This document shows positions 5,626 to 54,131 of a stretch of 64,000 nt of DNA, one piece after another. Each line of letters opens with the position of its first letter. Position 1 is the stretch's first letter. Source of the DNA: an uncultured Methanocellaceae archaeon (GTDB lineage Archaea; Halobacteriota; Methanocellia; Methanocellales; Methanocellaceae); contig CAWACJ010000005.1 of the NCBI GenBank assembly GCA_963780665.1, positions 118,335-182,334 of the forward strand, written 5' to 3'. The translations under genes and the position numbers were made by a program. The notes below the pieces were generated by a model, which saw nothing but the letters and a program-made list of their open reading frames with translations, ran no database searches and was not told where the DNA came from.

Positions 5626-6807
5626 ATGTACGACGTATATAAGATCAGAGAGGATTTCAGCGTCCTGAAAGAAGTCATCTATCTGGACAGCGCAGCGACC
5701 AGCCAGAAACCCAGACCCGTCGTCGAGGCTATGAACGATTATTTTTACAAATACTGCGGCTCATATGGCAGAGGAGCACACAAGCTAGCCCGGATCACCA
5801 CGGAGAAATATGAGGATGCGCGAGAATCGGTCGCATCCCTATTAGGTATTCCCGCCAATAAGACGATTTTCACTAAGAACACGACTGAAGGCATTAACAT
5901 GATCGCATACGGGCTCAAATGGAAAGCAGGCGATCACATTATCACAGGGGTCACCGAGCACCATAGCAACCTGTTGCCGTGGCTGCGCCTCAGGGATAGA
6001 GGCGTGGAGGTCACGGTCGTGAACTCGGACGAAAAAGGCGTCATAGATCCTGCCGACATCGAATCTGCTATCACCGATAAAACAAGGCTCATCGCGATCG
6101 GGCATATCTCAAATTTTTTTGCAGCCATACAGGACATTAACGCGTACGCGAATATAGCCAGAAAAAATAATATCATGCTGCTGATAGACGCGGCGCAGTC
6201 AGTCGGCGAGATGCCGCTGAACTTTTCACAGATCGGATGCGATTTCATGTGCGCGCCGGGCCATAAAGGATTACTGGGCCCGCAAGGCACTGGTATTTTA
6301 TATATGAAAGACCCGGAGCAGGTGACGCCCGTATATGCCGGGGGCGGTACTGTGGAATCGGTCACGACAAACGGCTTTAGCTTCGATGAAATACCGTCCC
6401 GGTTCGAATACGGCACGCCCAACATACCGGGCGTAATAGGGCTCGGCAGAGCCGCGGAATATGTAAAAGAGCTAGGCCTGGAGAATATAGAGGCCCATGT
6501 GACAGGCCTATCCGAGCTATGCGCAAAGCGACTTTCGGAGATAAAGGGTGTAGATACCTACGGGCCAAAACACAGAGGCTCGCTGGTATCATTCAATGTC
6601 ACCGACCTCAACTCACATGATGTGGCAATGATCCTGGATGAGACAAAAAAGATCTGTATCCGCAGTGGCGCAATGTGCGCGCAGCCTGCGCTGGCGCGAA
6701 TATGCCTCACAGGTGCCGCACGCGCCTCGTTTGGCTGCTATAATACAAGTGAAGAAGTGGAAAAACTGGCATCCTCAGTCGAGATGATCGCCAGGACACT
6801 TGTGTAA
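5626..6807 (+). CDS. Cysteine desulfurase (class V aminotransferase, NifS/SufS/Csd-like)
   Basis: Length is 393 aa. The PLP-lysine motif ...APGHKGLLGPQGTGILY... is present, and the fold matches class V aminotransferases. Confidence 0.8.
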   Translation: MYDVYKIREDFSVLKEVIYLDSAATSQKPRPVVEAMNDYFYKYCGSYGRGAHKLARITTEKYEDARESVASLLGIPANKTIFTKNTTEGINMIAYGLKWKAGDHIITGVTEHHSNLLPWLRLRDRGVEVTVVNSDEKGVIDPADIESAITDKTRLIAIGHISNFFAAIQDINAYANIARKNNIMLLIDAAQSVGEMPLNFSQIGCDFMCAPGHKGLLGPQGTGILYMKDPEQVTPVYAGGGTVESVTTNGFSFDEIPSRFEYGTPNIPGVIGLGRAAEYVKELGLENIEAHVTGLSELCAKRLSEIKGVDTYGPKHRGSLVSFNVTDLNSHDVAMILDETKKICIRSGAMCAQPALARICLTGAARASFGCYNTSEEVEKLASSVEMIARTLV

Positions 6808-7072
6808 CCACGAAGTTCTCGGAGTCTCGGTTTCAACACGGAGACACTGGATGCGCGAAGTAGCACAAAGTTGTTTTTGTGTAAGCCTCCGGCGGCCAGG
6901 GGATTCTATTTTTATTGTGTAAGCCTCCGGCGGCTTACACAAAAACATTCACCACACACCGCACCTCAAACAAGGTCGCACAGCCGCCGGAGGCTTACAC
7001 AAAAACACCTTAGTGCTACTTCGTGCTCCCAGTGTCTCCGTGGTGAAACCGAGACTCCGAGAACTTAGTGGC
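6808..7072. repeat. Nested inverted-repeat element (MITE-like or large RNA/DNA hairpin structure), ~265 bp
   Basis: The outer arms 6808-6895 and 6984-7072 are reverse complements at roughly 90% identity. The arm sequence is cgaagttctcggagtctcggtttcaacacggagacactgg...ttgtttttgtgtaagcctccggcgg. The centre contains a second perfect hairpin, ttgtgtaagcctccggcggcttacacaa. The module ttgtttttgtgtaagcctccggcgg occurs three times (fwd, fwd/rev, rev). Confidence 0.6.
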
Positions 7073-7147
7073 GAGCTTAAAGAATAATAAACTAACAATA
7101 CGGTCTGTTAAGTGTCGAATTATAGTAAAAAAAGGTATTGGTATGTT

Positions 7148-8032
7148 TTATATACCAAACGCATTTTGAAGGGGTGTAGGCGCATGCACGGCCGTTTCAG
7201 GCCCATGCTCGAGACGTTCCTCGGCCCAGGTGTAGATCAACGTGTAGTATGATATGCGGATGAACATGTTGATCGTGGACACGAGCGATATGGCGGTGAA
7301 TGCGAAGATCAGCGCAACAGCGAGCGCCAGTGTCGTATTTGCATAATTCAGTATCGTGAAGATACCTAAGGCAACGACTATAGATACGATGATGCCTACA
7401 AAGGCGAATATACCGGTCAATATACGGATACCTACTTCGCCGGCCCCGATCAACACAAGATTATTCTTGGCGATATCGAAAGCCTTTTTAAAGGAATCGG
7501 TGAAACCGTAGCCGCCGATCACGACGGTCGGGATCAAAAGCATGCTAGCGATCTTCCAGCCTTCATTTAGTGCATCCGCAAAAACCGTGGCTAAAATGCC
7601 TGCGAGCAAGCCTCTTCTATTACCCTGGTTCTTTAATGACTGGACGATCACGTTGATAATAGCGGCCACAAGCGCGATCATCAGAATAGTAGGCGCCCTC
7701 GCCAGTGCCATGCTAAAAGCCTTATTAAGCGAGGATCTACCGAACTTTACATGTTCATAAACGGCGTATGCCGTAGAAGCCATAAAGATGTAGCTGATCG
7801 CATAGCTCACGAACAGCGCGATAAGCAGGAAACCGCCGAAGATGAAGAAAGCGTTTCCGAACACGTTGAAAAGGACCAGCGCTATGACTACAAAAATGCT
7901 GACGAAAAAGCCGATCGCAACAGAAAGTAGAGACGGAAGCAACAGCTTAGGCTCCTCAATGACCATACGATAGCATTCGACGATATATTTAAACGCCTGG
8001 CCGATTGAATCGAATATTGACAACCACATCAC
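7148..8032 (-). CDS. Polytopic integral membrane protein of unknown function
   Basis: Length is 294 aa with at least six predicted hydrophobic helices. No catalytic motif was recognised. Confidence 0.5.
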   Translation of the reverse strand: MMWLSIFDSIGQAFKYIVECYRMVIEEPKLLLPSLLSVAIGFFVSIFVVIALVLFNVFGNAFFIFGGFLLIALFVSYAISYIFMASTAYAVYEHVKFGRSSLNKAFSMALARAPTILMIALVAAIINVIVQSLKNQGNRRGLLAGILATVFADALNEGWKIASMLLIPTVVIGGYGFTDSFKKAFDIAKNNLVLIGAGEVGIRILTGIFAFVGIIVSIVVALGIFTILNYANTTLALAVALIFAFTAISLVSTINMFIRISYYTLIYTWAEERLEHGPETAVHAPTPLQNAFGI

Positions 8033-9885: not shown

Positions 9886-11376
9886 CTAGAACATGCTACC
9901 GATCGACTTCAGCATATTGTTAATGAGATACGATATGTACGTAAGGCTCAATCCGGGAACGGCAACAAGTTCGACTGTAACGTTCATGTCTTTGCCCGGT
10001 ATCACCTGGAAGGTCCCGGTATTATTCCGGTACCCGTCTCTTGATACGAGATACGTATATGAGCCATCCGACTGGTTCTTCAAGTTAACAGAGCCAATGC
10101 CGATATACTGCCCATTCACATAGATCAGCGAATCGTCCGGGCTTACTGTCATACGCACGTTACCGGTACTTTGAACAAGAGTCTTCGATATGCGGGTAGT
10201 ATTTTCGGCCACTATATTAACCGAAAAGTTCTCATTGTGATAACCGCTCATCTGCAAGCTGACATCATGTACACCGGATTTTACACCGGTAAAGTTGTAT
10301 GGTGTCACCTTACCCATGTCACTACCATCAATGAATATCTTAGCGCCTTCAGGATCAGATTGGATCTGAAGTGCCGAGGAATCTACAAAATCCACGTTCA
10401 TAGAGACCGCATAATCATGTGTGACGTTAAGCATGTTCGGATAATATATCAAGAACTTATCCGATTGTTTTGTATAATCTTTACCATTTAGCTGGTAATC
10501 GAGCTTAACGGTATAATTTTCACTGATCGCGTCCTCACTTACGCCATTGAACTCGTAATAGCCATTCTGCCCGGTCGTTGTTTCCATGACGGTTGACAGG
10601 TTACCATTTGATAGCACCTTACTTAGCTGGATCGAAACTCCGGCAAGAGGCACGCCATTCCTTTGTTCTACGTATCCGTGCACTATGTTTACCTGTGGAA
10701 CCGGCGCAGGATGATACGTTACGTTGGGGTTTAAGGTCAGAGGTACGTATATTGTTTCGGACGAGGTATCGTCACTAGCCACATGGACCGGATATTTTTG
10801 AGATGCGTAGGTCGTATTATTTGAATTATGCTCCGCCCATACTACATAATCACCGGTAGGCAGGTAGAATTGCCACTTACTTCCAACGCCTTCCGTGAAA
10901 TATGTATACATCCCATTGTTAAGATATATTGTCGCGCTTACGGGAACGGCATAATTCTGGTCAGCCGTTACTACTCCTGTCATCCAGCCCATTCCGGATG
11001 GCGGGTACCTGAAGATCACGACATCCTCAGGAACTACCTGTAACTCGTTAACTGTGAAAAATATTGTCTTATCCGAATATGTGTTACCATTGGCGTTCAA
11101 AGTCGCTGATAGCCGATAGGTATGGCCGCCAGGTAAGCTATTAAAAGTGTATGAACCGTTAGCATCGCTGACCGCTGTCCCTAGGTTCTTGAACTCGTAG
11201 TCGACGATCTGCACTTGTGCTCCGCTGACAGGATCTCCGTTCTTATCAAGAACGCGACCGGTCACAGAGCCATAGATAATTGATGAATCATTTTGCGCCG
11301 AAGAAACCGGCATTAATGAAATGAGAATGATGAGAATAATAAATATCGAAATTGGCTTAAAGACCATTTTTAACAT
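9886..11376 (-). CDS. Secreted/surface protein with carboxypeptidase-regulatory-like and PEGA beta-sandwich domains
   Basis: A signal peptide (MLKMVFKPISIFIILIILISLMPVSSA) is followed by Ig-like repeats. The C-terminal PEGA-type motif is DPEGAKIFIDGSDMGKVTPYNFTGVKSGVHDVSLQMSGYHNENFSV. Many NxS/T sequons are present. The track ORF extends to 11433, and I take the internal Met as the start. Confidence 0.65.
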   Translation of the reverse strand: MLKMVFKPISIFIILIILISLMPVSSAQNDSSIIYGSVTGRVLDKNGDPVSGAQVQIVDYEFKNLGTAVSDANGSYTFNSLPGGHTYRLSATLNANGNTYSDKTIFFTVNELQVVPEDVVIFRYPPSGMGWMTGVVTADQNYAVPVSATIYLNNGMYTYFTEGVGSKWQFYLPTGDYVVWAEHNSNNTTYASQKYPVHVASDDTSSETIYVPLTLNPNVTYHPAPVPQVNIVHGYVEQRNGVPLAGVSIQLSKVLSNGNLSTVMETTTGQNGYYEFNGVSEDAISENYTVKLDYQLNGKDYTKQSDKFLIYYPNMLNVTHDYAVSMNVDFVDSSALQIQSDPEGAKIFIDGSDMGKVTPYNFTGVKSGVHDVSLQMSGYHNENFSVNIVAENTTRISKTLVQSTGNVRMTVSPDDSLIYVNGQYIGIGSVNLKNQSDGSYTYLVSRDGYRNNTGTFQVIPGKDMNVTVELVAVPGLSLTYISYLINNMLKSIGSMF

Positions 11377-11437
11377 TTTTACCACACGCGAAAAATAAAA
11401 GGTAAGGGGATTTTTACATCCCCTTAGATTCAAGCGT

Positions 11438-13501
11438 TTAGTTCTCCTTCCTCGCGATCAGGTAGGCTACACCGAGTAAGCCTGCAAGTGCGAACAGAGC
11501 CTCAAAGCCCGGGGTGGGCGTTGCGGTCACGGTCGTGGTTGCAGTTGCGGATGCCTGCGTGGTCGGGGTCGGGGTGACAGTTGGCGTCGGCGTGCTTGGT
11601 GCCATGTATGCGTAGTCGGGTATTGCTATGTTGTGCGTAGCTGTACCGATTTCGCCATTGAAGTTCTTTGCACCAGCGATGCTTGTTGCCGTGTTCGGGC
11701 CGAGTACGAAGACTGCGTAGTATACGTGTCCTTGTTTCTCAGCGGTCACGTTGTATAAGCCCCAGGGGACACGGTAGTAGGTGTACATACCGACTGCTGC
11801 CGTCCTTCCATCGTTGGACTGCTGCGGGTTCTCCGGGATCTTTACAATGCCATTGTTGTCATACTGCTCTGCTACTGTGCCGTTCTGTACAGCATACCAT
11901 AAGGTAACGTTTGCGTAGGGTATACCGACCTTGTTCTGGTCAGTGATGATGCCCGACACAGTGCCCCAGCCTACTACGTAGACTACGGTGCTGTTGGAGA
12001 TGACTTCTCCGTACATGATCGACGAGTTAGCAGTTATGTTGACCATACCGATCGTCTTGTTGGACGTTAAGGGTATTGTCGCCTGACCGTTCAGGTCCGA
12101 TACGTTCGTCTTCACGGCCGGTAAGGTCGCGACGGTGTCGTTGTCCGACGAGAACTGTATCTTAATGTTTGACCTGTGGTACGGCTGACCGTTCAAGTAT
12201 AACTGAGCGGTGATGATCGACGTGTCGCCACCAACCAGGATTGTGGATGGGTCAGCGGTCACATAGATTGCATCGGGAGGCGGTACATGCAGAACAATGA
12301 ATCCCGACGAGGTCGAGGACTTGTTCAGCGAGTAGTTGTTGCTCCTGCCGTAGATCGTCATGTTGTCGGTCAGCTGAGCGCTCGCATCAGCGAATGCCCA
12401 TGCAGTGTCCGGAGTCAGGACGATGTTGTCAAAGACATACAATCCTACGAACGGCTGTGAGCTGCTCGTTGGTGCAGTCATGTTGTAGATTTCGCCATTC
12501 GAGGCGTTCCTGACGTGCAGAGTCACGGTGATGCCACCGTAGCCAGTGCCGTAGGAGTCAACAACGTAGCCAGTCCATGATGCAGTCGGTGCCCTGAAGT
12601 AGATCTTCACGGAGCCGTTGATCGATGGGTCTGCTGCATAGTATGCCCAGATCGTGGTGTTGTTGCCGCCCCTTATGTCAGGTACCCAGCCGTACTGGAT
12701 CGTGGCTGCGCCATCCTTGGTGGATACGTTGCCGGATGTGATACCAGTGCGCTGTGTGAGGCCGCCGATGTTGTTGCCACCAGTCGTGCTGTTGTAACCA
12801 TAGAAGCTACCGTTGTAGTAGTTGGTCGTTCCTGCGCTCATGTCTCCTGTCGGCTTCACGCCACCCCAGCTTGCCTGGTTGGTCATGTTGTCGATTGAGA
12901 AGAAGACCGGTGTGCCATCGCCGACCTTGTTTCCAAGGGCGTCGTAGACATATGCAGTGATCTGTATGTTGTCTGCAGAGTCAGATACAACGTAGTTCCT
13001 CTCGGCCGTTACTGTGATCTTGGCCGCCTTGGTGAATATGACGACTGATGTGGTCGATGTTGCGCTGCTCTGTACGCTGAACGCGTGTGAGTAGCCTTCA
13101 CCGAACGGGCTGAGGTTAGCGTACATCATGTAAGCTTCTCCGGATGCAGGTCCAGATGCTGTTACAGCAGGTGAGACCACGCCCCCGTTAACGGTCGCGT
13201 TAACGCCAGTCATCTGGTAGTAACCCATTGCATCGGCGGTTACGTTAAAGTATTCCTGGCTATTATTCGATGCGTTGACGATCGATACATAAGCCCCACC
13301 GAGACCTACAGTCGTGTTCTGGGTGGTAACCCTACCAGTAACTGAACCCGTGCTCCAAGTAGACGGCATTGCAGGGTAAGAGTTTGCGTTGACACCCGTG
13401 CCGAATGTAGTTGGATACGAGGCAGTTGCGGCTGGTAATGCAACGGCAATAAGTGACATTATCATTATTGCTGCTAATGCTGCCTTAGTATTAGTTTTCA
13501 T
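11438..13501 (-). CDS. S-layer-type surface glycoprotein with a PGF-CTERM archaeosortase sorting signal
   Basis: Length is 687 aa. It has a signal peptide and a Thr/Pro-rich linker (PTPTVTPTPTT...). The C-terminus is PGFEALFALAGLLGVAYLIARKEN, i.e. PGF plus a TM helix plus basic tail. NxS/T sequons are dense, and GGAGGT sits 7 nt upstream of the ATG. Confidence 0.8.
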   Translation of the reverse strand: MKTNTKAALAAIMIMSLIAVALPAATASYPTTFGTGVNANSYPAMPSTWSTGSVTGRVTTQNTTVGLGGAYVSIVNASNNSQEYFNVTADAMGYYQMTGVNATVNGGVVSPAVTASGPASGEAYMMYANLSPFGEGYSHAFSVQSSATSTTSVVIFTKAAKITVTAERNYVVSDSADNIQITAYVYDALGNKVGDGTPVFFSIDNMTNQASWGGVKPTGDMSAGTTNYYNGSFYGYNSTTGGNNIGGLTQRTGITSGNVSTKDGAATIQYGWVPDIRGGNNTTIWAYYAADPSINGSVKIYFRAPTASWTGYVVDSYGTGYGGITVTLHVRNASNGEIYNMTAPTSSSQPFVGLYVFDNIVLTPDTAWAFADASAQLTDNMTIYGRSNNYSLNKSSTSSGFIVLHVPPPDAIYVTADPSTILVGGDTSIITAQLYLNGQPYHRSNIKIQFSSDNDTVATLPAVKTNVSDLNGQATIPLTSNKTIGMVNITANSSIMYGEVISNSTVVYVVGWGTVSGIITDQNKVGIPYANVTLWYAVQNGTVAEQYDNNGIVKIPENPQQSNDGRTAAVGMYTYYRVPWGLYNVTAEKQGHVYYAVFVLGPNTATSIAGAKNFNGEIGTATHNIAIPDYAYMAPSTPTPTVTPTPTTQASATATTTVTATPTPGFEALFALAGLLGVAYLIARKEN
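11550..12510. repeat. Dispersed repeat copy A (~1 kb), near-identical to 52300..53260
   Basis: The protein blocks YNMT...PFVGLYVFDNI...GEIGTATHNIAIPDYAY are about 90% identical between the two surface-protein genes. The antisense spurious ORFs 11668..11907 and 52424..52660 are themselves near-identical, which indicates nucleotide-level conservation. Boundaries are approximate. Confidence 0.5.
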
Positions 13502-16051: not shown

Positions 16052-16663
16052 ATGGAACTGAGGGATATTATTATTGCAATGATCGCCACATTTGTATTTC
16101 TCGTGCTCTTAGCGATCGGCATCACGTTCATCATAGGCAACTCAGCGCCGAGCCCGACACCCACAGTTTCGCCGGATATCTCGGCTACCGCGAGTGTATA
16201 TTCGCCGACGGGCACGTACGAGATAGTCCCTGCTGACAGTACCACGCCTACAAACCAGCCATCCGGTAACCCGAAGCCGGTGCCTACGGCCAGCGGCCCT
16301 GCGATCACTAGCGCTACGATCACGGACCATGGGACAGATAAGGATACTTATAAGAGAGGCGACACGGCGACGGGCTTTGTAGCCCTCAAGAATACTGGCA
16401 ACACTGTCATCAACAACGTGGTCATGGATGTCTCCGTGTCCAAGTCTATCTCATTCATCGGATTTGTAAAAGTCGGAGGGACGACCTACCCGTATAGTAG
16501 TGAGAACATCCGGCCCGGAGAGACACGCAGGATCGAGTTCTCTACGGTCATACCGTCCGACTATAAAGGCATCTCTACGGCCGGCGACTTCGAATTCGAA
16601 GTGACCGTGACGGCGGAAGGCACCAGCGCCGGCAGCTTTACACAGGCGGTAAAGGTGCAGTAA
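16052..16663 (+). CDS. Membrane-anchored secreted protein, paralog A (conserved TDKDTYxRGDTAxGF...IPSDYKG.STAGD block)
   Basis: An N-terminal TM/signal anchor and a Pro/Thr-rich linker are followed by a C-terminal beta-rich domain. That domain is shared with the next gene. Confidence 0.55.
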   Translation: MELRDIIIAMIATFVFLVLLAIGITFIIGNSAPSPTPTVSPDISATASVYSPTGTYEIVPADSTTPTNQPSGNPKPVPTASGPAITSATITDHGTDKDTYKRGDTATGFVALKNTGNTVINNVVMDVSVSKSISFIGFVKVGGTTYPYSSENIRPGETRRIEFSTVIPSDYKGISTAGDFEFEVTVTAEGTSAGSFTQAVKVQ

Positions 16664-16828: not shown

Positions 16829-17377
16829 ATGAATCCTGTTTTTGTGGGCGTTATGGAAAATTACTATAATCTGATTGTTGCAGTATCGCTGGTCATGTTA
16901 GGCTTTATCATGGCAGCATCTAGCCTGGCGACAGCATACGTGATCCCGACGGAGTTTTCGCCTGACTTGTCTCAGGCGCTGGCCGTGGATATGGTGATGC
17001 CGGTGACTGCGGCGAGCACGATGAATGCAGAGGTCGTCAATTACGGGACCGATAAGGACACCTATAACAGAGGCGACACGGCGAAAGGGTTCATCACGCT
17101 GAAAAATACCGGTGATGCAGACATCAACGATGTGACGATCGGCGTATCCGTGGCAAGGTCCGTGCCCGTGCTTGGCATGATGACGCTGGGCAGCCAGGAC
17201 ATCCGGCTGACGGGCTTGAACATAAAGCCTGGCGAGACAAAGAACGCTGATTATTCAGTGGCAATACCGAGTGATTACAAAGGGCTTTCCACGGCAGGAG
17301 ATTACAAAGTCAGTGGTAAGGTGACCGTGGGCGGTAAAGATGCAGGCAGCTTCAGCAAGTCTATAAAGGTAGTTTAA
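16829..17377 (+). CDS. Membrane-anchored secreted protein, paralog B
   Basis: Shares YGTDKDTYNRGDTAKGFITLKNTGD...NIKPGETK...AIPSDYKGLSTAGDYK...GSFSKSIKV with paralog A and has an N-terminal hydrophobic anchor. Confidence 0.55.
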   Translation: MNPVFVGVMENYYNLIVAVSLVMLGFIMAASSLATAYVIPTEFSPDLSQALAVDMVMPVTAASTMNAEVVNYGTDKDTYNRGDTAKGFITLKNTGDADINDVTIGVSVARSVPVLGMMTLGSQDIRLTGLNIKPGETKNADYSVAIPSDYKGLSTAGDYKVSGKVTVGGKDAGSFSKSIKVV

Positions 17378-20392: not shown

Positions 20393-21439
20393 TTATACGC
20401 GCTCATAGACTGTGTTGCGCTCCACGGGCACGCGCCCTATGGCTGTAATGTACTGGCAGATCTGTTCCTTTGACAGGTAATCGCCATGTGTAGCGCCGCC
20501 GGCCATGGAGATCTTGTCTTCCATCATTGTCCCGCCGAAGTCGTTTGCACCACAACACAGGACGACCTGGGCCAGTTTCGTACCCATCTTGACCCAGGAT
20601 GCCTGGATGTTCGGTAATTCCCGGCCGAAGATGATGCGGGCGATCGCGTGTACCTTCAAGTCATCCATACCGCTTGCCCCTATCGACTGGTCGCTCAGGT
20701 TATTGTTCTCGTGTAAGAAGGTCAGAGGTATGAACTCAGTAAATCCATGGGTCTTCCGCTGGATGTCTCGTATGATCAGCATATGGTCTATGCGGTCTTC
20801 CCAGGTCTCGATCGTGCCATGCATGATGCTGGAGGTGGTCTTTATCCCCAGCTTATGCGCGTCCATGATGATGTCTATCCATTCCTGGGTGGATACTTTT
20901 TTCGGGCATATCTTAGCCCTGACCGAGTCCACCAGGATCTCGGCGGAAGCGCCGGTCATCGTATCGAGCCCTGCCTCCTTAAAGGCTGCCAGTGCCTGGG
21001 CGGGCGTCACGCCGGAGACTTTCGCCGCATAAGAGACTTCAAGCGGTGACAGCGCATGGAGGCTGATGTCGTACTTCGCTTTTATAGCCCTGAAGAGATC
21101 GCAATAATAATCGACGGTCATGTATGGCATGACGCCGGAAATAAAGCAGACTTCGGTGGCGTTTATTTTTTTGGCCTCGCCGACGCTCTCCATGATCTGT
21201 TCCGGGGTCATCGCATAGCCGATGTGGTTCCTGAAAGAGCAAAATTTACAGCCGATGACGCAATGGTCGGTAATGTCGACGAGCCTGTTGACGACAAAAG
21301 TTACCTCGTCGCCCACGATTTCTTTTCGCAGCCTGTCGGCTGTGTCGAACAGCTCGAAAGGATTGCCGTCCAGTAAGCGCATCGCATCTTCTTTAGTGAT
21401 CTCGCCCTTAAGAGAGCGTTCATAGATGTCTTCCAGCAT
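20393..21439 (-). CDS. Radical SAM protein, CofH-like (FO synthase subunit 2 family), paralog 2
   Basis: Length is 348 aa. CxxxCxxC motif CVIGCKFCSF, a C-terminal GANDFGGTMMED block, and ~50% identity to the adjacent CofH-like gene. Confidence 0.7.
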   Translation of the reverse strand: MLEDIYERSLKGEITKEDAMRLLDGNPFELFDTADRLRKEIVGDEVTFVVNRLVDITDHCVIGCKFCSFRNHIGYAMTPEQIMESVGEAKKINATEVCFISGVMPYMTVDYYCDLFRAIKAKYDISLHALSPLEVSYAAKVSGVTPAQALAAFKEAGLDTMTGASAEILVDSVRAKICPKKVSTQEWIDIIMDAHKLGIKTTSSIMHGTIETWEDRIDHMLIIRDIQRKTHGFTEFIPLTFLHENNNLSDQSIGASGMDDLKVHAIARIIFGRELPNIQASWVKMGTKLAQVVLCCGANDFGGTMMEDKISMAGGATHGDYLSKEQICQYITAIGRVPVERNTVYERV

Positions 21440-21546: not shown

Positions 21547-22626
21547 TCATATGAACTTGTACAGGGTAGTGCGCTGCCTGGGGTTGCGCCCGGCCTGCTT
21601 GATAATATCCCGCATCTCGCCAGGCGTCATGCACTCGCCAGACGTAGAGCCCGCGGTCCTCGAGATGCTCTCTTCCATGAGGGTGCCGCCGATATCATTT
21701 GCGCCACAGCTGAGCGCCACCTGCGCCAGCTTGGGGCTGAGCTTCACCCATGATGCCTGTACATTGACCAGGTCCCGGCCGAAGATGAGCCTTGCCAGGG
21801 CGTACATTCGGAGATCATCCAGCCCGCCGGCGCCCGCCTGCTTACCCGCCTTTATGAGCGACTCGCCGAGCGGGTTGTTCTTGCCCATGAAGGTGAGCGG
21901 CACGAACTCAGTGATGCCGTGTGTCTCGCGCTGTATGTCCCGGATGATGAAAAGATGGTCGATGCGATGCGCCCAGGTCTCGATGTGGCCGTACATCATG
22001 GTGGAGGTGGTCGGAATGCCAGTCCTGTGTGCGGTGGACACGACTTCTATCCATTCCTTAGTGTTTAGCTTATCGGGGCATATCTCGGACCTGATCCCGT
22101 CGTCCAGTATCTCGGCGGCGGTGCCCGGCATGGAGCATAGTCCCGCTTCCTTGAGAGCTTTGAGCGAATGCGCAACGGTGACGCCGGAGATCTTACTCAT
22201 GTGGTAGACCTCCATTGGCGAAAAAGCGTGTATGTCGATCTCGTACTTACCTTTGATCGCCTTGAGCATGGAGACATAGTAATCTAAGTACAAATCCGGC
22301 TGTAAGCCGCCCTGGATGCACACCTCAGTGGCACCGAAGCGCTTCGCCCCGTCCACCCGTGCAAGCATCTCATCGGTAGTAAGATGATAGCCGACATTAT
22401 TCCTGAAAGCGCAAAATGTGCATGTTCCCGTGCACTTATCGGTAAAATTGATGTTCCTGTTCACGACATAGGAGACATCGTCGCCGACCAGTTCCCTGCG
22501 TACTGCGTCAGCCGTATCGAACAGCTCGAACGGATTTGCTTTCAGTAGTTCTGCGGCGTCCTTTTTAGTGATCCTGCCCTCGAGAGAGCGTTCATAGATG
22601 TCGTTCAGCACCATATCCATCTTCAC
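21547..22626 (-). CDS. cofH: Radical SAM protein, CofH-like (7,8-didemethyl-8-hydroxy-5-deazariboflavin synthase subunit 2 family), paralog 1
   Basis: Length is 359 aa with [10 protein letters not shown] and [12 protein letters not shown]. It lies immediately downstream of cofG on the same strand, with a small overlap. Confidence 0.7.
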
Positions 22627-24705: not shown

Positions 24706-24939
24706 TATTTAAAGATTTACCTACTGATGCAAAACGGCTTGATGTAGTGAAAAGCAACCGTTTGTGGTTTTAGTGTCCAATCAAGGCTTGTGTTATTCTC
24801 AGTATGCGGAGTCACCCGGCCGTCGGAGGCATATACGAAAACATCTTTGAGAATATCCGTGAAGTCAGTGTCTCCGTGTTGAAACAGTGAGCTTCGAGCA
24901 TTTTGCGAGCTTAGATATGCATAAAGAAAAAAGCGATTT

Positions 24940-46168: not shown

Positions 46169-46247
46169 AGTGCGGCTATATTATTTACGTAACCGGAAAA
46201 TATTAAATAGTATCAGTAGAAATTAGAGCGTCAGGCATTTCTTGATG

Positions 46248-46330
46248 TCGCGGTATCCAAGCCTGGTATGGAGCAGGTTTGCTAAACCTGTGTTCGAAAG
46301 GACTCCGGAGTTCAAATCTCCGCCGCGGCG
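46248..46330 (+). tRNA. tRNA-Ser (anticodon GCU)
   Basis: The acceptor stem is GTCGCGG paired with CCGCGGC plus G. The D-arm is UCCA/UGGA. The anticodon stem CAGGT/ACCTG carries the loop TTGCTAA, giving GCT. There is a long variable arm, and the T-arm is CGGAG-TTCAAAT-CTCCG. Confidence 0.8.
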
Positions 46331-46393
46331 CTGAAGCAGGTGTATCCGGGCCTTCTGGCTTGGATACATGATTTGTTTTTAATGGTTTTCTTT

Positions 46394-46503
46394 GTTTTCG
46401 CGGGTGCGACGATATAGAAGAAAATATAGTTTATCACCATTTTCGCGGGTGCGACGATTAAAGAAGAAAATATAGTTTATCACCATTTTCGCGGGTGCGA
46501 CGC
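46394..46503. repeat. Tandem direct repeat, ~46-47 bp unit x ~2.4, followed by GC-rich low-complexity sequence
   Basis: ttttcgcgggtgcgacgat[at/ta]a[g/a]aagaaaatatagtttatcaccat is repeated, and a third partial unit follows. The intervening sequences are identical, so this is not a CRISPR. Downstream lies gctcgc/cttcgc-rich sequence and the hairpin cgtgccgacatgacggcacg. Confidence 0.7.
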
Positions 46504-52202: not shown

Positions 52203-54131
52203 TTAATTTTGCTTCCTTATAGTCAAATAGGCGACACTAAATAAGCTGACAAACGCGAATATTGCCTCAAACCCCGGCGAAGGTATCATAGAAGGAGTCG
52301 GCACTGTTGAGGCAGCCGGTACTATCGTGGAAGGCGTCGGGGTCACATCGCTCGGGAGTGGTGCAAAGTATGCGTAGTCGGGTATGGCGATATTATGCGT
52401 AGCTGTACCGATCTCGCCGTTGAATGCCGCCACACCTGTCGCCGAACCCGGACCCAGAGCGAACACGGCATAATAGATATGTCCGTCCTTCTCAGCGGTC
52501 ACGTTGTATAAGCCCCATGGGACACGGTAGTAGGTGTACATACCGACTGCTGCCGTCCTTCCATCGTTGGACTGCTGCGGGTTCTCCGGGATTTTTACGA
52601 TGCCGTTGTTGTCATACTGTTCAGCCACGGATGAATTCTGCACAGCATTCCACAGAGTAACGTTTGCGTAGGGTATACCGACCTTGTTCTGGTCAGTGAT
52701 GATGCCCGACACAGTGCCCCAGCCAACAACCTTGACCAGAGTGCTGTTCGAGACATTAGTACCATACATGATATTAGTGCTCGCAGTCACGTTGACCCAG
52801 CCGTATGAACGATTGGACGTTAAGGGTATTGTCGCCTGACCGTTCAGGTCAGATACGTTCGTCCTCACGGCCGGCAAGGTCGCTACGGTGTCGTTGTCCG
52901 ACGAGAACTGAATCTTAATGTTTGACCTGTGGTACGGCTGGCCGTTCAAGTACAGCTGAGCGGTGATGGTCGACGTGTCGCCACCAACCAGGATCGTTTG
53001 CGGATCAGCGGTCACATAGATTGCATCGGGAGGCGGTACATGCAGAACAATGAATCCCGAAGACGTTGAGGACTTATTCAAGGAATAATTATTACTCCTA
53101 CCGTAGATCGTCATGTTGTCGGTCAGCTGAGCGCTCGCGTCAGCGAATGCCCATGCAGTATCCGGAGTCAGGGCGATGTTGTCAAAGACATACAATCCTA
53201 CGAACGGCTTTGATGTACTCGTTGTCGTGGTCATATTATAAATCTCGCCATTCGAGGCGTTCCTTATGTGCAAGGTCACGATGATGCCACCGTAGCCGGT
53301 GTCATAAGAATCGACGACATAGCCGGTCCACGAGGAAGCCATCGGCATGAATCGTATAGCCACGGAGCCGTTTATGTTCGGGCTGTTTGCAACATATGCA
53401 TGGATCGCCGTGTTATTCCCGCCCATCGTATCCGGCACCCAGCCAAAATCGACGGTCGCTACGCCACCTTTTGTAAACGCGGTAGCGTTGTTCACGCTGT
53501 TATACCGGCTGAAGCTGCCGTTATTTTGGTTCATCGGCGTGCCATTCGCATATGTCCACGACGGAAGGCTTGACATGTCCCCGATAGTGAACCATACTGC
53601 CGTGCCGTCGCCGACAGCATTGCCGAAGACGTCATAAACACGGGCAGTCACCTGGATATTGTCCGCACTATCTGCTAAGATATAATTACGCGCTGCCTGA
53701 ACATTGACGCTGGAAGCATTGAGGAAAATGATGACCGAAGTGGTCGAAGTGGCGCCGGGATTAATGCCGAACGCATGGGAGAACCCCTCGCCGTACTTAG
53801 TGAGATTGGCGTATATCATATATGAGTTGTCATCGAGCGTCGCGTTGACACCGATCATCTGGTAATAGCCCTGCGAATCTGCGGTAACGTTAAAATACTC
53901 TACACTATTGTTTGAGGCATTAACGATCGATACGTAGGCCCCGCCAATACCTTGTGTCGTGTGCTGCGTCGTCACCCTGCCAGTCACCTGGCCGGTCATC
54001 CATCCCGATGGCATTTGTGGATAATGGCTGCCGAAGCTGGTCGGATACGAGGCTGTAGCCGGAGGGATGATAATTGCCATGATCGATATGATCATCATAG
54101 CTGCAATGGCAGCTCTGGTAGTACTTTTCAT
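52203..54131 (-). CDS. S-layer-type surface glycoprotein with PGF-CTERM, paralog of 11438..13501
   Basis: Length is 642 aa, with a signal peptide. The C-terminus is PSPGFEAIFAFVSLFSVAYLTIRKQN. The C-terminal ~320 aa are about 90% identical to the other copy. Confidence 0.8.
   Translation of the reverse strand: MKSTTRAAIAAMMIISIMAIIIPPATASYPTSFGSHYPQMPSGWMTGQVTGRVTTQHTTQGIGGAYVSIVNASNNSVEYFNVTADSQGYYQMIGVNATLDDNSYMIYANLTKYGEGFSHAFGINPGATSTTSVIIFLNASSVNVQAARNYILADSADNIQVTARVYDVFGNAVGDGTAVWFTIGDMSSLPSWTYANGTPMNQNNGSFSRYNSVNNATAFTKGGVATVDFGWVPDTMGGNNTAIHAYVANSPNINGSVAIRFMPMASSWTGYVVDSYDTGYGGIIVTLHIRNASNGEIYNMTTTTSTSKPFVGLYVFDNIALTPDTAWAFADASAQLTDNMTIYGRSNNYSLNKSSTSSGFIVLHVPPPDAIYVTADPQTILVGGDTSTITAQLYLNGQPYHRSNIKIQFSSDNDTVATLPAVRTNVSDLNGQATIPLTSNRSYGWVNVTASTNIMYGTNVSNSTLVKVVGWGTVSGIITDQNKVGIPYANVTLWNAVQNSSVAEQYDNNGIVKIPENPQQSNDGRTAAVGMYTYYRVPWGLYNVTAEKDGHIYYAVFALGPGSATGVAAFNGEIGTATHNIAIPDYAYFAPLPSDVTPTPSTIVPAASTVPTPSMIPSPGFEAIFAFVSLFSVAYLTIRKQN
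52300..53260. repeat. Dispersed repeat copy B (~1 kb), near-identical to 11550..12510
   Basis: See copy A. Boundaries are approximate. Confidence 0.5.

What the first reader, a model, noticed from the sequence alone, without database searches (positions are those of the whole stretch)
11438..13501. Two PGF-CTERM S-layer-type glycoprotein paralogs 40 kb apart share a near-identical ~1-kb 3' block (gene conversion?)
Genes 11438..13501 and 52203..54131 are both on the minus strand. Each encodes a signal peptide, Asn-sequon-rich Ig-like repeats, a Thr/Pro linker and a PGF-CTERM archaeosortase signal.

Their N-terminal ~300 aa are moderately similar. The C-terminal ~320 aa (about 11550-12510 versus 52300-53260) are ~90% identical. 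Even the spurious antisense ORFs 11668..11907 and 52424..52660 are near-identical, which shows nucleotide-level conservation.

The upstream regions and ribosome-binding sites differ. The mosaic pattern points to recent gene conversion or recombination between cell-surface genes. This is a classic route to surface variation and a hazard for assembly collapse.
Basis: seen in the sequence. Interest (0 to 1): 0.55.

Follow-up and report, generated by a model that had tools for sequence, protein, structure and literature searches.

The report
Old patchy gene conversion, S-layer paralogs
Two genes 40 kb apart in an uncultured Methanocellaceae methanogen, encoding candidate cell-surface (S-layer-type) glycoproteins, have had parts of their 3' halves overwritten by one another through gene conversion; this is real but old, shared with sister species, and an ordinary kind of event.

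Summary
Genes A (11438..13501, -) and B (52203..54131, -) are intact paralogs with a signal peptide, about 2.4-fold excess of N-glycosylation sequons, five predicted beta-sandwich domains, a Thr/Pro linker and a PGF-CTERM tail.

Nucleotide identity is 65% in the 5' 950 nt. It is about 90% and 88% in two 3' tracts (A 12062-12544 and 11702-11965). A 96-nt island at 61% separates the tracts, and a diverged tail (67%) follows.

The mosaic is not just protein constraint. At 4-fold sites of conserved codons the paralogs differ by 0.68 in the N block and 0.19 in the tracts (p=2e-13). Three of four ortholog pairs tested (A1-A2, B1-B4, B1-B5) show no significant drop; A1-A3 does (p=3e-4).

Block-wise trees from five or more related species put A and B in deep clades for the N block, island and tail. 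In the tracts the A/B split collapses.

So gene conversion is supported, but it is neither recent nor near-identical. Tract divergence (K4 0.21) is about half the divergence from sister species. The same mosaic is present in independent assemblies, which excludes an artefact. The exchange homogenises the conserved half and does not diversify the variable N-terminal half.

This is a known kind of process. Interest is modest.

The parts
11438..13501 (-). Gene A. 687-aa PGF-CTERM surface glycoprotein. It is the ancestral, positionally conserved copy and the positional ortholog of the predicted Methanocella S-layer protein.
   Evidence: ORF. PF18204 and TIGR04126 above cut-off. The A locus (GHMP kinase-apgM | A | PEGA | RTC) is conserved in all sampled Methanocellaceae. 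A is 46% identical over its full length to P0051 = UniRef100_Q0W2X2, which is listed as a predicted S-layer protein in bioRxiv 10.1101/2024.05.28.596244.
52203..54131 (-). Gene B. 642-aa paralog and a lineage-specific dispersed duplicate. It sits between an M20 peptidase gene and a cupin gene.
   Evidence: ORF. Pfam PGF-CTERM above cut-off, TIGR04126 below. The B-type locus is found only in the G1-G5 species group. N-block dN/dS between B orthologs is 0.11-0.16, so B is under purifying selection.
12545..13501 (-). A N block (signal peptide plus predicted domains D1-D2 and the first strand of D3). It is paralog-specific and old. The B counterpart is about 53298..54131.
   Evidence: 64.6% nt and 53% aa identity to B. 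dS 2.86. 4-fold p 0.68. A and B clades each have 100% bootstrap. Orthology sites dominate.
12062..12544 (-). Conversion tract C1 (rest of domain D3 plus most of D4). The B counterpart is 52815..53297.
   Evidence: 89.9% nt identity. dS 0.39 against 2.86 in the N block. The A/B split collapses in trees. A1-B1 differences switch from dense to sparse at about 12545-12530.
11966..12061 (-). Unconverted island (last two strands of D4). The B counterpart is 52719..52814.
   Evidence: 61.5% nt identity and dS 1.94. A and B clades have 89% and 99% bootstrap. A orthologs are 88-96% identical here. Small A-type patches occur inside the island of B_G2, B_G5 and L026.
11702..11965 (-). Conversion tract C2 (most of domain D5). 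The B counterpart is 52455..52718. It contains the longest exact A/B match (11766-11839).
   Evidence: 88.3% nt identity and dS 0.54. 74-nt exact match. A fragment at 11838..11768 is shared by most copies.
11438..11701 (-). Diverged tail: end of D5, Thr/Pro linker and PGF-CTERM (aa 663-685 = nt 11447-11515). It includes a small 88% patch at 11597-11662. The B counterpart is 52203..52454.
   Evidence: 67.1% nt identity and dS 1.54. The patch is D5.
9886..11433 (-). Co-oriented gene 4 nt downstream of A. It encodes a CarboxypepD_reg + PEGA domain secreted protein and is the conserved partner of A throughout Methanocellaceae. B has no such partner.
   Evidence: Pfam. Synteny.

Best explanation
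A and B are paralogous genes for PGF-CTERM-anchored, heavily N-glycosylated, multi-beta-sandwich surface proteins of an uncultured Methanocellaceae methanogen. They belong to the family predicted to form the Methanocella S-layer.

A is the ancestral copy at a locus conserved family-wide. B is an old dispersed duplicate that exists only in a group of at least five related species.

After the copies had diverged to synonymous saturation, ectopic homologous recombination without crossover (gene conversion) overwrote two stretches of the 3' half, covering domains D3-D5. The direction was most probably A to B. A 96-nt island, the linker/anchor tail and the whole N-terminal half stayed paralog-specific.

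This happened in at least two episodes. One was at or before the radiation of the five species. A later one was in the lineage of the window genome and its two sister species. Short patches (about 20-100 nt) typical of heteroduplex repair were added later. The last exchange is old: about 10% nucleotide and about 20% 4-fold-site divergence.

Shown: the mosaic, the synonymous-site contrast with ortholog controls, the tree incongruence, the recurrence in independent genomes, and synteny.

Inferred: the direction, the number of episodes, the S-layer role, and that conserved function of the D3-D5 module lets converted alleles persist.
For: 1. Mosaic identity with sharp edges inside the ORFs and unalignable flanks.

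2. Synonymous contrast. NG86 dS for A1-B1 is N 2.86, C1 0.39, island 1.94, C2 0.54, tail 1.54. For orthologs it is A1-A2 0.53 vs 0.46 and B_G1-B_G4 0.71 vs 0.84. At 4-fold sites of conserved codons, A1-B1 differ at 64/94 in N and 22/118 in C1+C2 (Fisher p=2e-13). A1-A2, B1-B4 and B1-B5 are not significant.

3. Block-wise NJ trees of nine genes. A and B clades have 89-100% bootstrap in N, island and tail. The tracts give a star-like tree (42-76% support), also with third positions only.

4. Quartet sites (A1, A2, B1, B2). In the 5' half there are 182 orthology sites against 8 and 4. Inside the tracts the orthology signal is lost except in the island.

5. More than one episode. In C1+C2 A1-B1 (third-position p 0.23; K4 0.21) is closer than B_G1 is to its own orthologs B_G4 and B_G5 (0.39-0.40; K4 0.69-0.73). 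B_G1 and B_G4 have equal distance to the outgroup.

6. Calibration. Flanking-gene K4 is 0.48 for G1-G2, 0.41 for G1-G3 and 0.74 for G1-G4.

7. A permutation (GENECONV-style) test finds short paralog-shared fragments, for example A_G3-B_G2 over 97 nt with p<0.0005. A/B patches are visible in the island.

8. Independent local homogenisation in other Methanocella paralog pairs. In MCL-LM, 4-fold differences are 11/53 in alignment columns 360-480 against about 0.6 elsewhere. In the SRP302447 MAG they are 2/27 in columns 420-480.

9. Polarity. The A locus is conserved across the family and B only in G1-G5. In the tracts A copies are basal with short branches. A to outgroup distance is the same in N and C (third-position 0.49 vs 0.48).

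10. Precedent for domain-limited gene conversion in methanogens, including M. arvoryzae: PMC4632066.
Against: - Among A orthologs of G1-G3 the tracts are also less diverged at 4-fold sites (K4 0.14-0.27) than flanking genes (0.41-0.48). Intragenomic conversion cannot produce this. It needs inter-lineage recombination or some local synonymous constraint, and either would blur the dating.
- Within-genome and cross-genome A-B distances are the same on average in G1-G3 (about 0.31). So there is no sign of ongoing genome-specific conversion.
- Direction and event number rest on NJ distances from short blocks.
- The B genes of G2 and G3 carry single-base indels that may be long-read errors.
- All genomes are MAGs or metagenome contigs, and no reads were available.
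- N-block 4-fold divergence of A to B (K4 1.8) exceeds A to outgroup (0.71), although protein trees place A and B as sisters. The age and origin of B's N block are therefore uncertain.
Confidence: 0.8

Rival explanations
1. There was no recombination. A and B diverged uniformly in time, and the 3' half simply evolves more slowly because domains D3-D5 are under stronger purifying selection.
For: Family-wide, the C-terminal block is more conserved than the N-terminal one, for example 65% vs 48% aa identity to distant homologs. dN/dS is lower in C1/C2 (0.04-0.17) than in N (0.10-0.21). Many invariant residues lie in D3-D5.
Against: Synonymous and 4-fold-site divergence differ about 8-fold between blocks for the paralogs (K4 1.79 vs 0.21, p=2e-13). 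They do not differ for A1-A2, B1-B4 or B1-B5. Third-position trees also collapse the A/B split. The island inside the conserved region keeps deep divergence.
Confidence: 0.03
2. Reverse polarity. B is a young full-length duplicate of A (age equal to the tract divergence). Its N block, island and tail were later replaced by DNA from a divergent homolog (xenologous or allelic replacement), or B is a fusion of a foreign 5' part with A's 3' part.
For: B's N block is more diverged from A at 4-fold sites (K4 1.79) than the outgroup ortholog is (0.71), and it is saturated against the outgroup (2.28). B sits on a long stem in N-block trees. There is evidence of inter-lineage recombination in this group: the A-side locus is 86.7% identical between G2 and G3 and the B-side locus 92.3%.
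Against: It needs three separate replacements (N block, 96-nt island, tail) against two tracts for conversion. No candidate donor lineage exists among 70 homologs, and A is the closest relative of B's N block (53% aa against at most 44% for any other). The B-type N block, island and tail are stably inherited in five species. Mechanistically it is still ectopic recombination, so only the history differs.
Confidence: 0.1
3. Assembly or polishing artefact. One copy's 3' half is a chimera or a consensus contaminated by reads from the other copy.
For: The tracts are repeats of about 0.9 kb at 86-90% identity. One short-read contig (L026) is a B-5'/A-3' hybrid that continues into the A-locus flank and switches in the most identical stretch. 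B genes of G2 and G3 carry indels.
Against: The same mosaic, with the same boundaries and island, is seen in the window, in G2 (two contigs of 322 and 338 kb), in G3 (both copies 44 kb apart on one 477-kb contig) and in B genes of G4 and G5 from other samples. The copies differ at about 10% of tract positions and share at most 74 identical bases. Both window ORFs are intact.
Confidence: 0.02
4. A programmed surface-variation system (silent-cassette recombination, invertible promoter or diversity-generating retroelement) in which B serves as a donor of variant sequence to the expressed A gene.
For: These are surface glycoprotein paralogs. The conserved block could serve as a recombination handle. 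L026, if real, places a B-type N block at the A locus.
Against: The variable N block shows essentially no A/B exchange across five species. The island is stable, not hypervariable, with A orthologs 88-96% identical. B has its own start, signal peptide and purifying selection with dN/dS 0.11-0.16. No inverted repeats flank either gene. The genes are in direct orientation, so a crossover would delete 40 kb rather than switch.
Confidence: 0.02

Closest known systems
Domain-limited concerted evolution of mtrA-1/mtrA-2 in methanogens (Wang et al. 2015, G3, PMC4632066), with a putative further case in Methanocella arvoryzae
   Same: Old paralogs in methanogenic archaea. One domain is repeatedly homogenised by gene conversion while another part stays paralog-specific. 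Detection rests on tree incongruence and Ks.
   Different: The mtrA copies are adjacent in one operon and encode an enzyme subunit. Here the copies are 40.7 kb apart and encode surface proteins. Conversion here is patchy with an unconverted island. It looks episodic, with the last event at about half the sister-species divergence, rather than continuous.
Predicted S-layer protein of Methanocella (Q0W2X2 of M. arvoryzae, D1Z1E7 of M. paludicola; bioRxiv 10.1101/2024.05.28.596244)
   Same: A and B are full-length homologs of Q0W2X2 (A is 46% identical, E 2e-145). A occupies the conserved locus shared with the MCL-LM ortholog that clusters with Q0W2X2.
   Different: The S-layer role is itself a computational prediction. 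Nothing shows which of A or B, or both, is in the lattice of this organism.
Haloferax volcanii S-layer glycoprotein Csg with PGF-CTERM/archaeosortase A anchoring (PDB 7ptp; PMC5867893)
   Same: Signal peptide, a string of Ig-like beta-sandwich domains, many N-glycosylation sequons, a Thr-rich linker and a PGF-CTERM tail. 7ptp appears among the fold hits.
   Different: There is no detectable sequence homology. The fold match is weak and generic (rank 45, TM 0.21). The domain number is five, not six. ArtA was not looked for.
Recombination among bacterial surface-protein paralogs (Campylobacter fetus sap cassettes, Neisseria pilE/pilS, opa) - from general knowledge
   Same: Homologous recombination between dispersed paralogs of a surface protein that share a conserved block.
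   Different: In those systems exchange moves the variable part into an expression site and creates variation, often at high frequency. Here the conserved part is homogenised, the variable part is not exchanged, both copies look independently expressible, and events are rare on an evolutionary scale.

Membership tests
PGF-CTERM / archaeosortase A substrates (PF18204, TIGR04126) | HMM match at the extreme C-terminus above the curated cut-off | tested here: met
   A scores 36.4 bits on PF18204 (cut-off 18.8) and 34.4 on TIGR04126 (cut-off 24.5). B scores 24.7 on PF18204 (met) but only 16.7 on TIGR04126, which is below the cut-off.
PGF-CTERM / archaeosortase A substrates (PF18204, TIGR04126) | Pro-Gly-Phe motif, then a hydrophobic helix, then basic residues, preceded by a Thr/Pro-rich linker | tested here: met
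   A ends ...TPTPGFEALFALAGLLGVAYLIARKEN. B ends ...IPSPGFEAIFAFVSLFSVAYLTIRKQN. The model has a disordered linker at 631-662 and a helix at 667-686.
PGF-CTERM / archaeosortase A substrates (PF18204, TIGR04126) | The genome encodes archaeosortase A (ArtA) | not tested
   Window ORFs were not scanned for ArtA, and the rest of the genome is not available.
Archaeal S-layer glycoprotein | Homology to a protein shown or predicted to form the S-layer | tested here: inconclusive
   A and B are homologous (46% identity, full length) to Q0W2X2, which is only a predicted SLP. No sequence match to any solved S-layer protein. The fold match to 7ptp is weak and generic.
Archaeal S-layer glycoprotein | Secreted and heavily glycosylated: signal peptide and sequon excess | tested here: met
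   N-terminal hydrophobic helix ending in ATA|S. 27 and 25 sequons against about 11 and 10 expected. Glycosylation itself is not shown.
Archaeal S-layer glycoprotein | Abundant envelope protein forming a 2-D lattice | not testable with these tools
   Needs proteomics or cryo-electron tomography.
Ectopic gene conversion between paralogs (concerted evolution) | A discrete tract of raised identity bounded inside otherwise diverged paralogs, with non-homologous flanks | tested here: met
Ectopic gene conversion between paralogs (concerted evolution) | Synonymous divergence in the tract significantly below that of the rest of the gene, with uniform divergence in ortholog controls | tested here: met
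   (Fisher p=2e-13; controls A1-A2, B1-B4 and B1-B5 not significant). Exception: A1-A3 also shows lower tract divergence (p=3e-4).
Ectopic gene conversion between paralogs (concerted evolution) | Phylogenetic incongruence between the tract and the flanking parts of the gene | tested here: met
Ectopic gene conversion between paralogs (concerted evolution) | Recent or ongoing: within-genome paralogs closer than between-genome paralogs | tested here: not met
   Mean third-position A-B distance in the tracts is about 0.31 both within and between genomes G1-G3. Only G1 (0.23) is somewhat lower.
Cassette-type or DGR-type programmed surface variation | Exchange or hypermutation of the variable region; invertible or silent donor architecture | tested here: not met
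   The N block is never exchanged in five species. The island is stable among orthologs. No inverted repeats near the genes. B is under purifying selection.

The most novel reading that the evidence does not exclude
The repeatedly homogenised D3-D5 module is the lattice-forming, membrane-proximal part of the Methanocellaceae S-layer. Selection favours conversion because it keeps A and B able to co-assemble into one lattice, or to replace each other in it, while displaying different outer N-terminal domains. This would be a two-isoform S-layer whose compatibility is maintained by concerted evolution. The shared block would also act as a handle for swapping N-terminal halves between loci or lineages, as the hybrid contig L026 would show if it is real.
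Probability: 0.15. Interest if true: 0.55.

Novelty: new member of a known kind. Interest (0 to 1): 0.3.

Why it matters
- It gives a clean, controlled example of domain-bounded concerted evolution in archaeal surface-protein genes. Ortholog comparisons act as an internal control for mutation rate.
- It identifies A as the conserved candidate S-layer gene of Methanocellaceae and B as a lineage-specific isoform.
- The about 0.9-kb shared block is a real hazard for short-read metagenome assembly and binning of these abundant soil and rice-field methanogens. One public contig is a B/A hybrid.
- It does not reveal a new mechanism.

Tried and rejected
- A profile search against PDB sequences gave only a weak Ig-domain hit.
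- Foldseek gave generic multi-Ig and macroglobulin hits with TM 0.1-0.2, which is uninformative about function.
- Rfam and tRNA scans found nothing in or near the two genes.
- Purifying selection alone was rejected on 4-fold sites.
- A young duplication with fast protein evolution of B's N block was rejected because synonymous sites there are saturated.
- DGR or cassette variation was rejected (see membership test).
- L026 was at first attractive as proof of a longer conversion tract. Its downstream flank is the A-locus PEGA gene, so it cannot be told from an assembly chimera or a deletion recombinant and was not used as evidence.
- I considered that B is a decaying pseudogene rescued by A, because of damaged B copies in G2, G3, G4 and L026. 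However, B's N block has dN/dS 0.11-0.16 and the window copy is intact. The indels lie at different positions in long-read MAGs and may be errors.
- The literature search found no experimental work on the Methanocella envelope protein.
Full report
OBSERVATION

Both ORFs are present exactly as stated: A = 11438..13501 (-), 687 aa, and B = 52203..54131 (-), 642 aa.
- Both proteins start with a hydrophobic signal-like segment ending in ATA|SYP.
- They contain 27 and 25 N-X-S/T sequons, against about 11 and 10 expected from composition. Neither has a cysteine.
- Both end in a Thr/Pro-rich linker followed by PGF, a hydrophobic helix and basic residues.
- The PGF-CTERM HMMs match. A is above both curated cut-offs. 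B is above the Pfam cut-off but below the NCBIfam one.

A nucleotide alignment with 800-nt flanks shows that homology is confined to the ORFs. The flanks are about 52-54% identical with many gaps. Within the ORFs identity is strongly mosaic:

| Block | A coordinates | nt identity to B |
|---|---|---|
| N block | 12557-13501 | 64.6% |
| C1 | 12062-12556 | 89.9% |
| Island | 11966-12061 | 61.5% |
| C2 | 11702-11965 | 88.3% |
| Small patch | 11597-11662 | 88% |
| Tail overall | 11438-11701 | 67% |

The antisense ORFs are 59% identical as proteins. 'Near-identical' and 'one ~1-kb block' are overstated.

ORGANISM AND FAMILY

All 70 database homologs are PGF-CTERM proteins of Methanocella/Methanocellaceae. 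Related loci were recovered as follows.
- G2 (ENA sample ERZ25039467): a syntenic A ortholog and a syntenic B ortholog on contigs of 322 and 338 kb.
- G3 (MAG MFD09286.bin.2.135): both copies 44 kb apart on one 477-kb contig.
- G4 and G5: B orthologs.
- L025: a further A ortholog.

Flanking DNA is 86-93% identical between the window and G3, and between G2 and G3. Flanking-gene 4-fold divergence is K4 0.48 (G1-G2), 0.41 (G1-G3) and 0.74 (G1-G4). These are therefore distinct species of one genus-level group.

The A locus (GHMP kinase-apgM | A | CarboxypepD_reg/PEGA protein | RTC) is conserved in every sampled Methanocellaceae genome. The B locus (M20 peptidase | B | cupin) exists only in G1-G5. 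The second paralogs of Methanocella sp. MCL-LM and of another MAG lie elsewhere.

Homolog P0051 is UniRef100_Q0W2X2. The supplement of bioRxiv 10.1101/2024.05.28.596244 lists it as the predicted S-layer protein of M. arvoryzae.

An AlphaFold model of A (pLDDT 79.7) shows these elements:
- five beta-sandwich domains: D1 about 50-157, D2 about 160-303, D3 about 305-405, D4 about 408-510, D5 about 511-625
- a disordered linker
- the C-terminal helix

Fold matches are generic strings of Ig/macroglobulin domains. The Haloferax S-layer protein 7ptp appears only at rank 45 with TM 0.21. No solved structure is a sequence homolog. 'S-layer-type' is therefore a reasonable label but an unproven one.

A third paralog class of about 305 aa shares only the D4-D5-linker-PGF module.

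IS THE MOSAIC CONSTRAINT OR RECOMBINATION?

Family-wide, the C-terminal half is more conserved than the N-terminal half (65% vs 48% aa to distant homologs). Differential constraint was therefore a serious rival. Synonymous sites decide against it.

NG86 dS by block:

| Pair | N | C1 | Island | C2 | Tail |
|---|---|---|---|---|---|
| A1-B1 (paralogs) | 2.86 | 0.39 | 1.94 | 0.54 | 1.54 |
| A1-A2 (orthologs) | 0.53 | 0.46 | | | |
| B_G1-B_G4 (orthologs) | 0.71 | 0.84 | | | |

I then restricted the count to 4-fold sites in codons whose amino acid is conserved.
- A1-B1 differ at 64/94 sites in N and 22/118 in C1+C2 (K4 1.79 vs 0.21; Fisher p=2e-13).
- A1-A2, B1-B4 and B1-B5 show no significant difference between blocks.

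Neighbour-joining trees of nine genes give A and B clades with 89-100% bootstrap in N, island and tail. In C1 and C2 the A/B branch collapses, also with third positions only.

Quartet-informative sites for A1, A2, B1 and B2 are 182 orthology-type against 8 and 4 in the 5' half. Inside the tracts the orthology signal disappears except in the island.

The same 5' boundary and the same island are visible for A2-B2. An artefact of one assembly is thus excluded. The best explanation is non-reciprocal homologous recombination between the two dispersed, directly oriented paralogs.

WHEN, HOW OFTEN, WHICH DIRECTION (INFERRED)

In the tracts, third-position distances between any A and any B are 0.23-0.38 within G1-G3 and 0.36-0.41 to B_G4/B_G5. 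In the N block they are about 0.6.

B_G1 is closer to A_G1 (0.23; K4 0.21) than to its own orthologs B_G4 and B_G5 (0.39-0.40; K4 0.69-0.73). B_G1 and B_G4 are equally far from the outgroup. One event before the five-species radiation cannot explain this. At least one further event occurred in the G1-G3 lineage.

Mean A-B distance is the same within and between genomes of G1-G3 (about 0.31), so there is no continuing homogenisation. The window pair is about 10% diverged, roughly half the flanking-gene divergence from sister species.

Fine-scale patches exist:
- Fragments are significantly shared between paralogs of different genomes, for example A_G3-B_G2 over 97 nt with p<0.0005.
- A1-B1 differences are clustered.
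- A-type patches of about 10-25 nt lie inside the B-type island of B_G2 and B_G5.

The direction A to B is favoured for three reasons:
- A is the ancestral locus.
- A copies are basal and short-branched in tract trees.
- The A to outgroup third-position distance is equal in N and tracts, 0.49 vs 0.48.

Independent local drops of 4-fold divergence occur between the paralogs of MCL-LM (11/53 in alignment columns 360-480 against about 0.6 elsewhere) and of another MAG (2/27 in columns 420-480). Conversion in the central and C-terminal domains therefore seems a recurrent property of this family.

The 5' edge of C1 (A about 12545-12530, aa about 320) lies about 15 codons into D3, close to the D2/D3 boundary. 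The island is the last two strands of D4.

WHAT DOES NOT FIT

- A orthologs of G1-G3 are less diverged in the tracts (K4 0.14-0.27) than flanking genes (0.41-0.48). For A1-A3 the N vs C contrast is itself significant (p=3e-4). Intragenomic conversion cannot do this.
- G2 and G3 are much closer at the B locus than at the A locus: 92.3% vs 86.7% nt, and third-position 0.09 vs 0.35 in the N block. Together these point to homologous recombination between lineages, or to composite MAGs. Either limits the precision of the dating.
- A-B 4-fold divergence in the N block (1.79) exceeds A to outgroup (0.71), although protein trees put A and B as sisters. B's N block may be older than the outgroup split, or of foreign origin.

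THE HYBRID CONTIG

Metagenome contig L026 (2.5 kb) has these parts:
- a B-type N block
- B-type diagnostic sites down to A coordinate about 12251
- mostly A-type sequence from about 12080
- an A-type tail
- the A-locus PEGA gene downstream
- an in-frame TAA in place of the invariant Tyr339 codon

This is what a crossover between the direct repeats would give, deleting the interval of about 40 kb. It is also what a B to A conversion of the N block would give, or an assembler switching paths in the most identical stretch. It cannot be resolved without reads and was not used as evidence.

COMPARISON AND VERDICT

The closest described case is the domain-limited concerted evolution of mtrA paralogs in methanogens, with a putative case in M. 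arvoryzae (PMC4632066).

Bacterial surface-antigen cassette systems (general knowledge) differ in a key way. Here the conserved half is homogenised and the variable half is never exchanged. B carries its own start and signal peptide and is under purifying selection (dN/dS 0.11-0.16).

The finding is real, and the gene-conversion reading is supported. 'Recent', 'near-identical' and 'route to surface variation' are not supported. This is a new example of a known process in a little-studied archaeal family, and interest is modest.

Noticed in passing
L026:1-2526 (JGI Ga0187810_10017883): A B-5'/A-3' hybrid gene followed by the A-locus PEGA gene. The main switch is at A coordinates about 12251-12080, with A/B patches in the island. 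An in-frame TAA replaces the invariant Tyr339 codon (L026 904-906). It is either a real recombinant or deletion product, or an assembly chimera.
   Followed up: partly
window 6808-7071: A near-perfect inverted repeat with 89-nt arms (92% complementary) that folds at -183.5 kcal/mol (z = -21). It lies between convergent ORFs 5626..6807 and 7148..8032. The orthologous interval in G3 is about 215 nt shorter (window 6804-7126 against L005 12268-12376), and a 76% related arm lies at 24809-24890. It looks like a MITE-like insertion.
   Followed up: partly
window 46395-46502: Three exact copies of TTTTCGCGGGTGCGACG at about 46-nt spacing, starting about 65 nt after tRNA-Ser(GCT) at 46247-46331. A GC-rich, low-complexity stretch follows up to about 46700. 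It may be an integration-site remnant. The Rfam gathering search did not report this tRNA, although ARAGORN did.
   Followed up: partly
L002:9400-11380; L014:5950-7935; L003:5232-7106: B orthologs are often damaged. B_G2 and B_G3 each carry two single-base insertions at different positions. B_G4 (P0004) has a 1-nt insertion that ends the protein at ...PSPGL*, removing the PGF-CTERM helix. These may be long-read errors or genuine decay of B. The window's own B is intact.
   Followed up: partly
L016-L023 (e.g. L018:5809-6717): A third paralog class of about 300-340 aa in many Methanocellaceae genomes. It has a signal peptide, a short N-terminal part, a homolog of A residues 428-634 (D4-D5), a linker and a PGF-CTERM-like tail, and is 47-55% identical to A. 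No copy is present in the window.
   Followed up: partly
L001 vs L005 and L002 vs L014: Genomes G2 and G3 are 86.7% identical around the A locus but 92.3% around the B locus. Third-position distance in the N block is 0.35 for the A genes and 0.09 for the B genes. This suggests recombination between lineages, or composite MAGs.
   Followed up: no
window 16331-16446 / 17045-17160 and 21260-21438 / 22432-22610: There are two pairs of tandem paralogous genes with 71-84% identical segments. They are ORFs 16052..16663 and 16829..17377, and 20393..21439 and 21547..22626. The second pair corresponds to the two radical-SAM CofH_C genes seen in L001.
   Followed up: no
L010/L012 (Methanocella sp. MCL-LM) and L011/L015 (MAG SRP302447_co3_415): Independent paralog pairs of the same family show local collapses of 4-fold-site divergence: 11/53 in alignment columns 360-480 and 2/27 in columns 420-480, against about 0.5-0.6 elsewhere. 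This indicates separate conversion events in other Methanocella lineages.
   Followed up: partly
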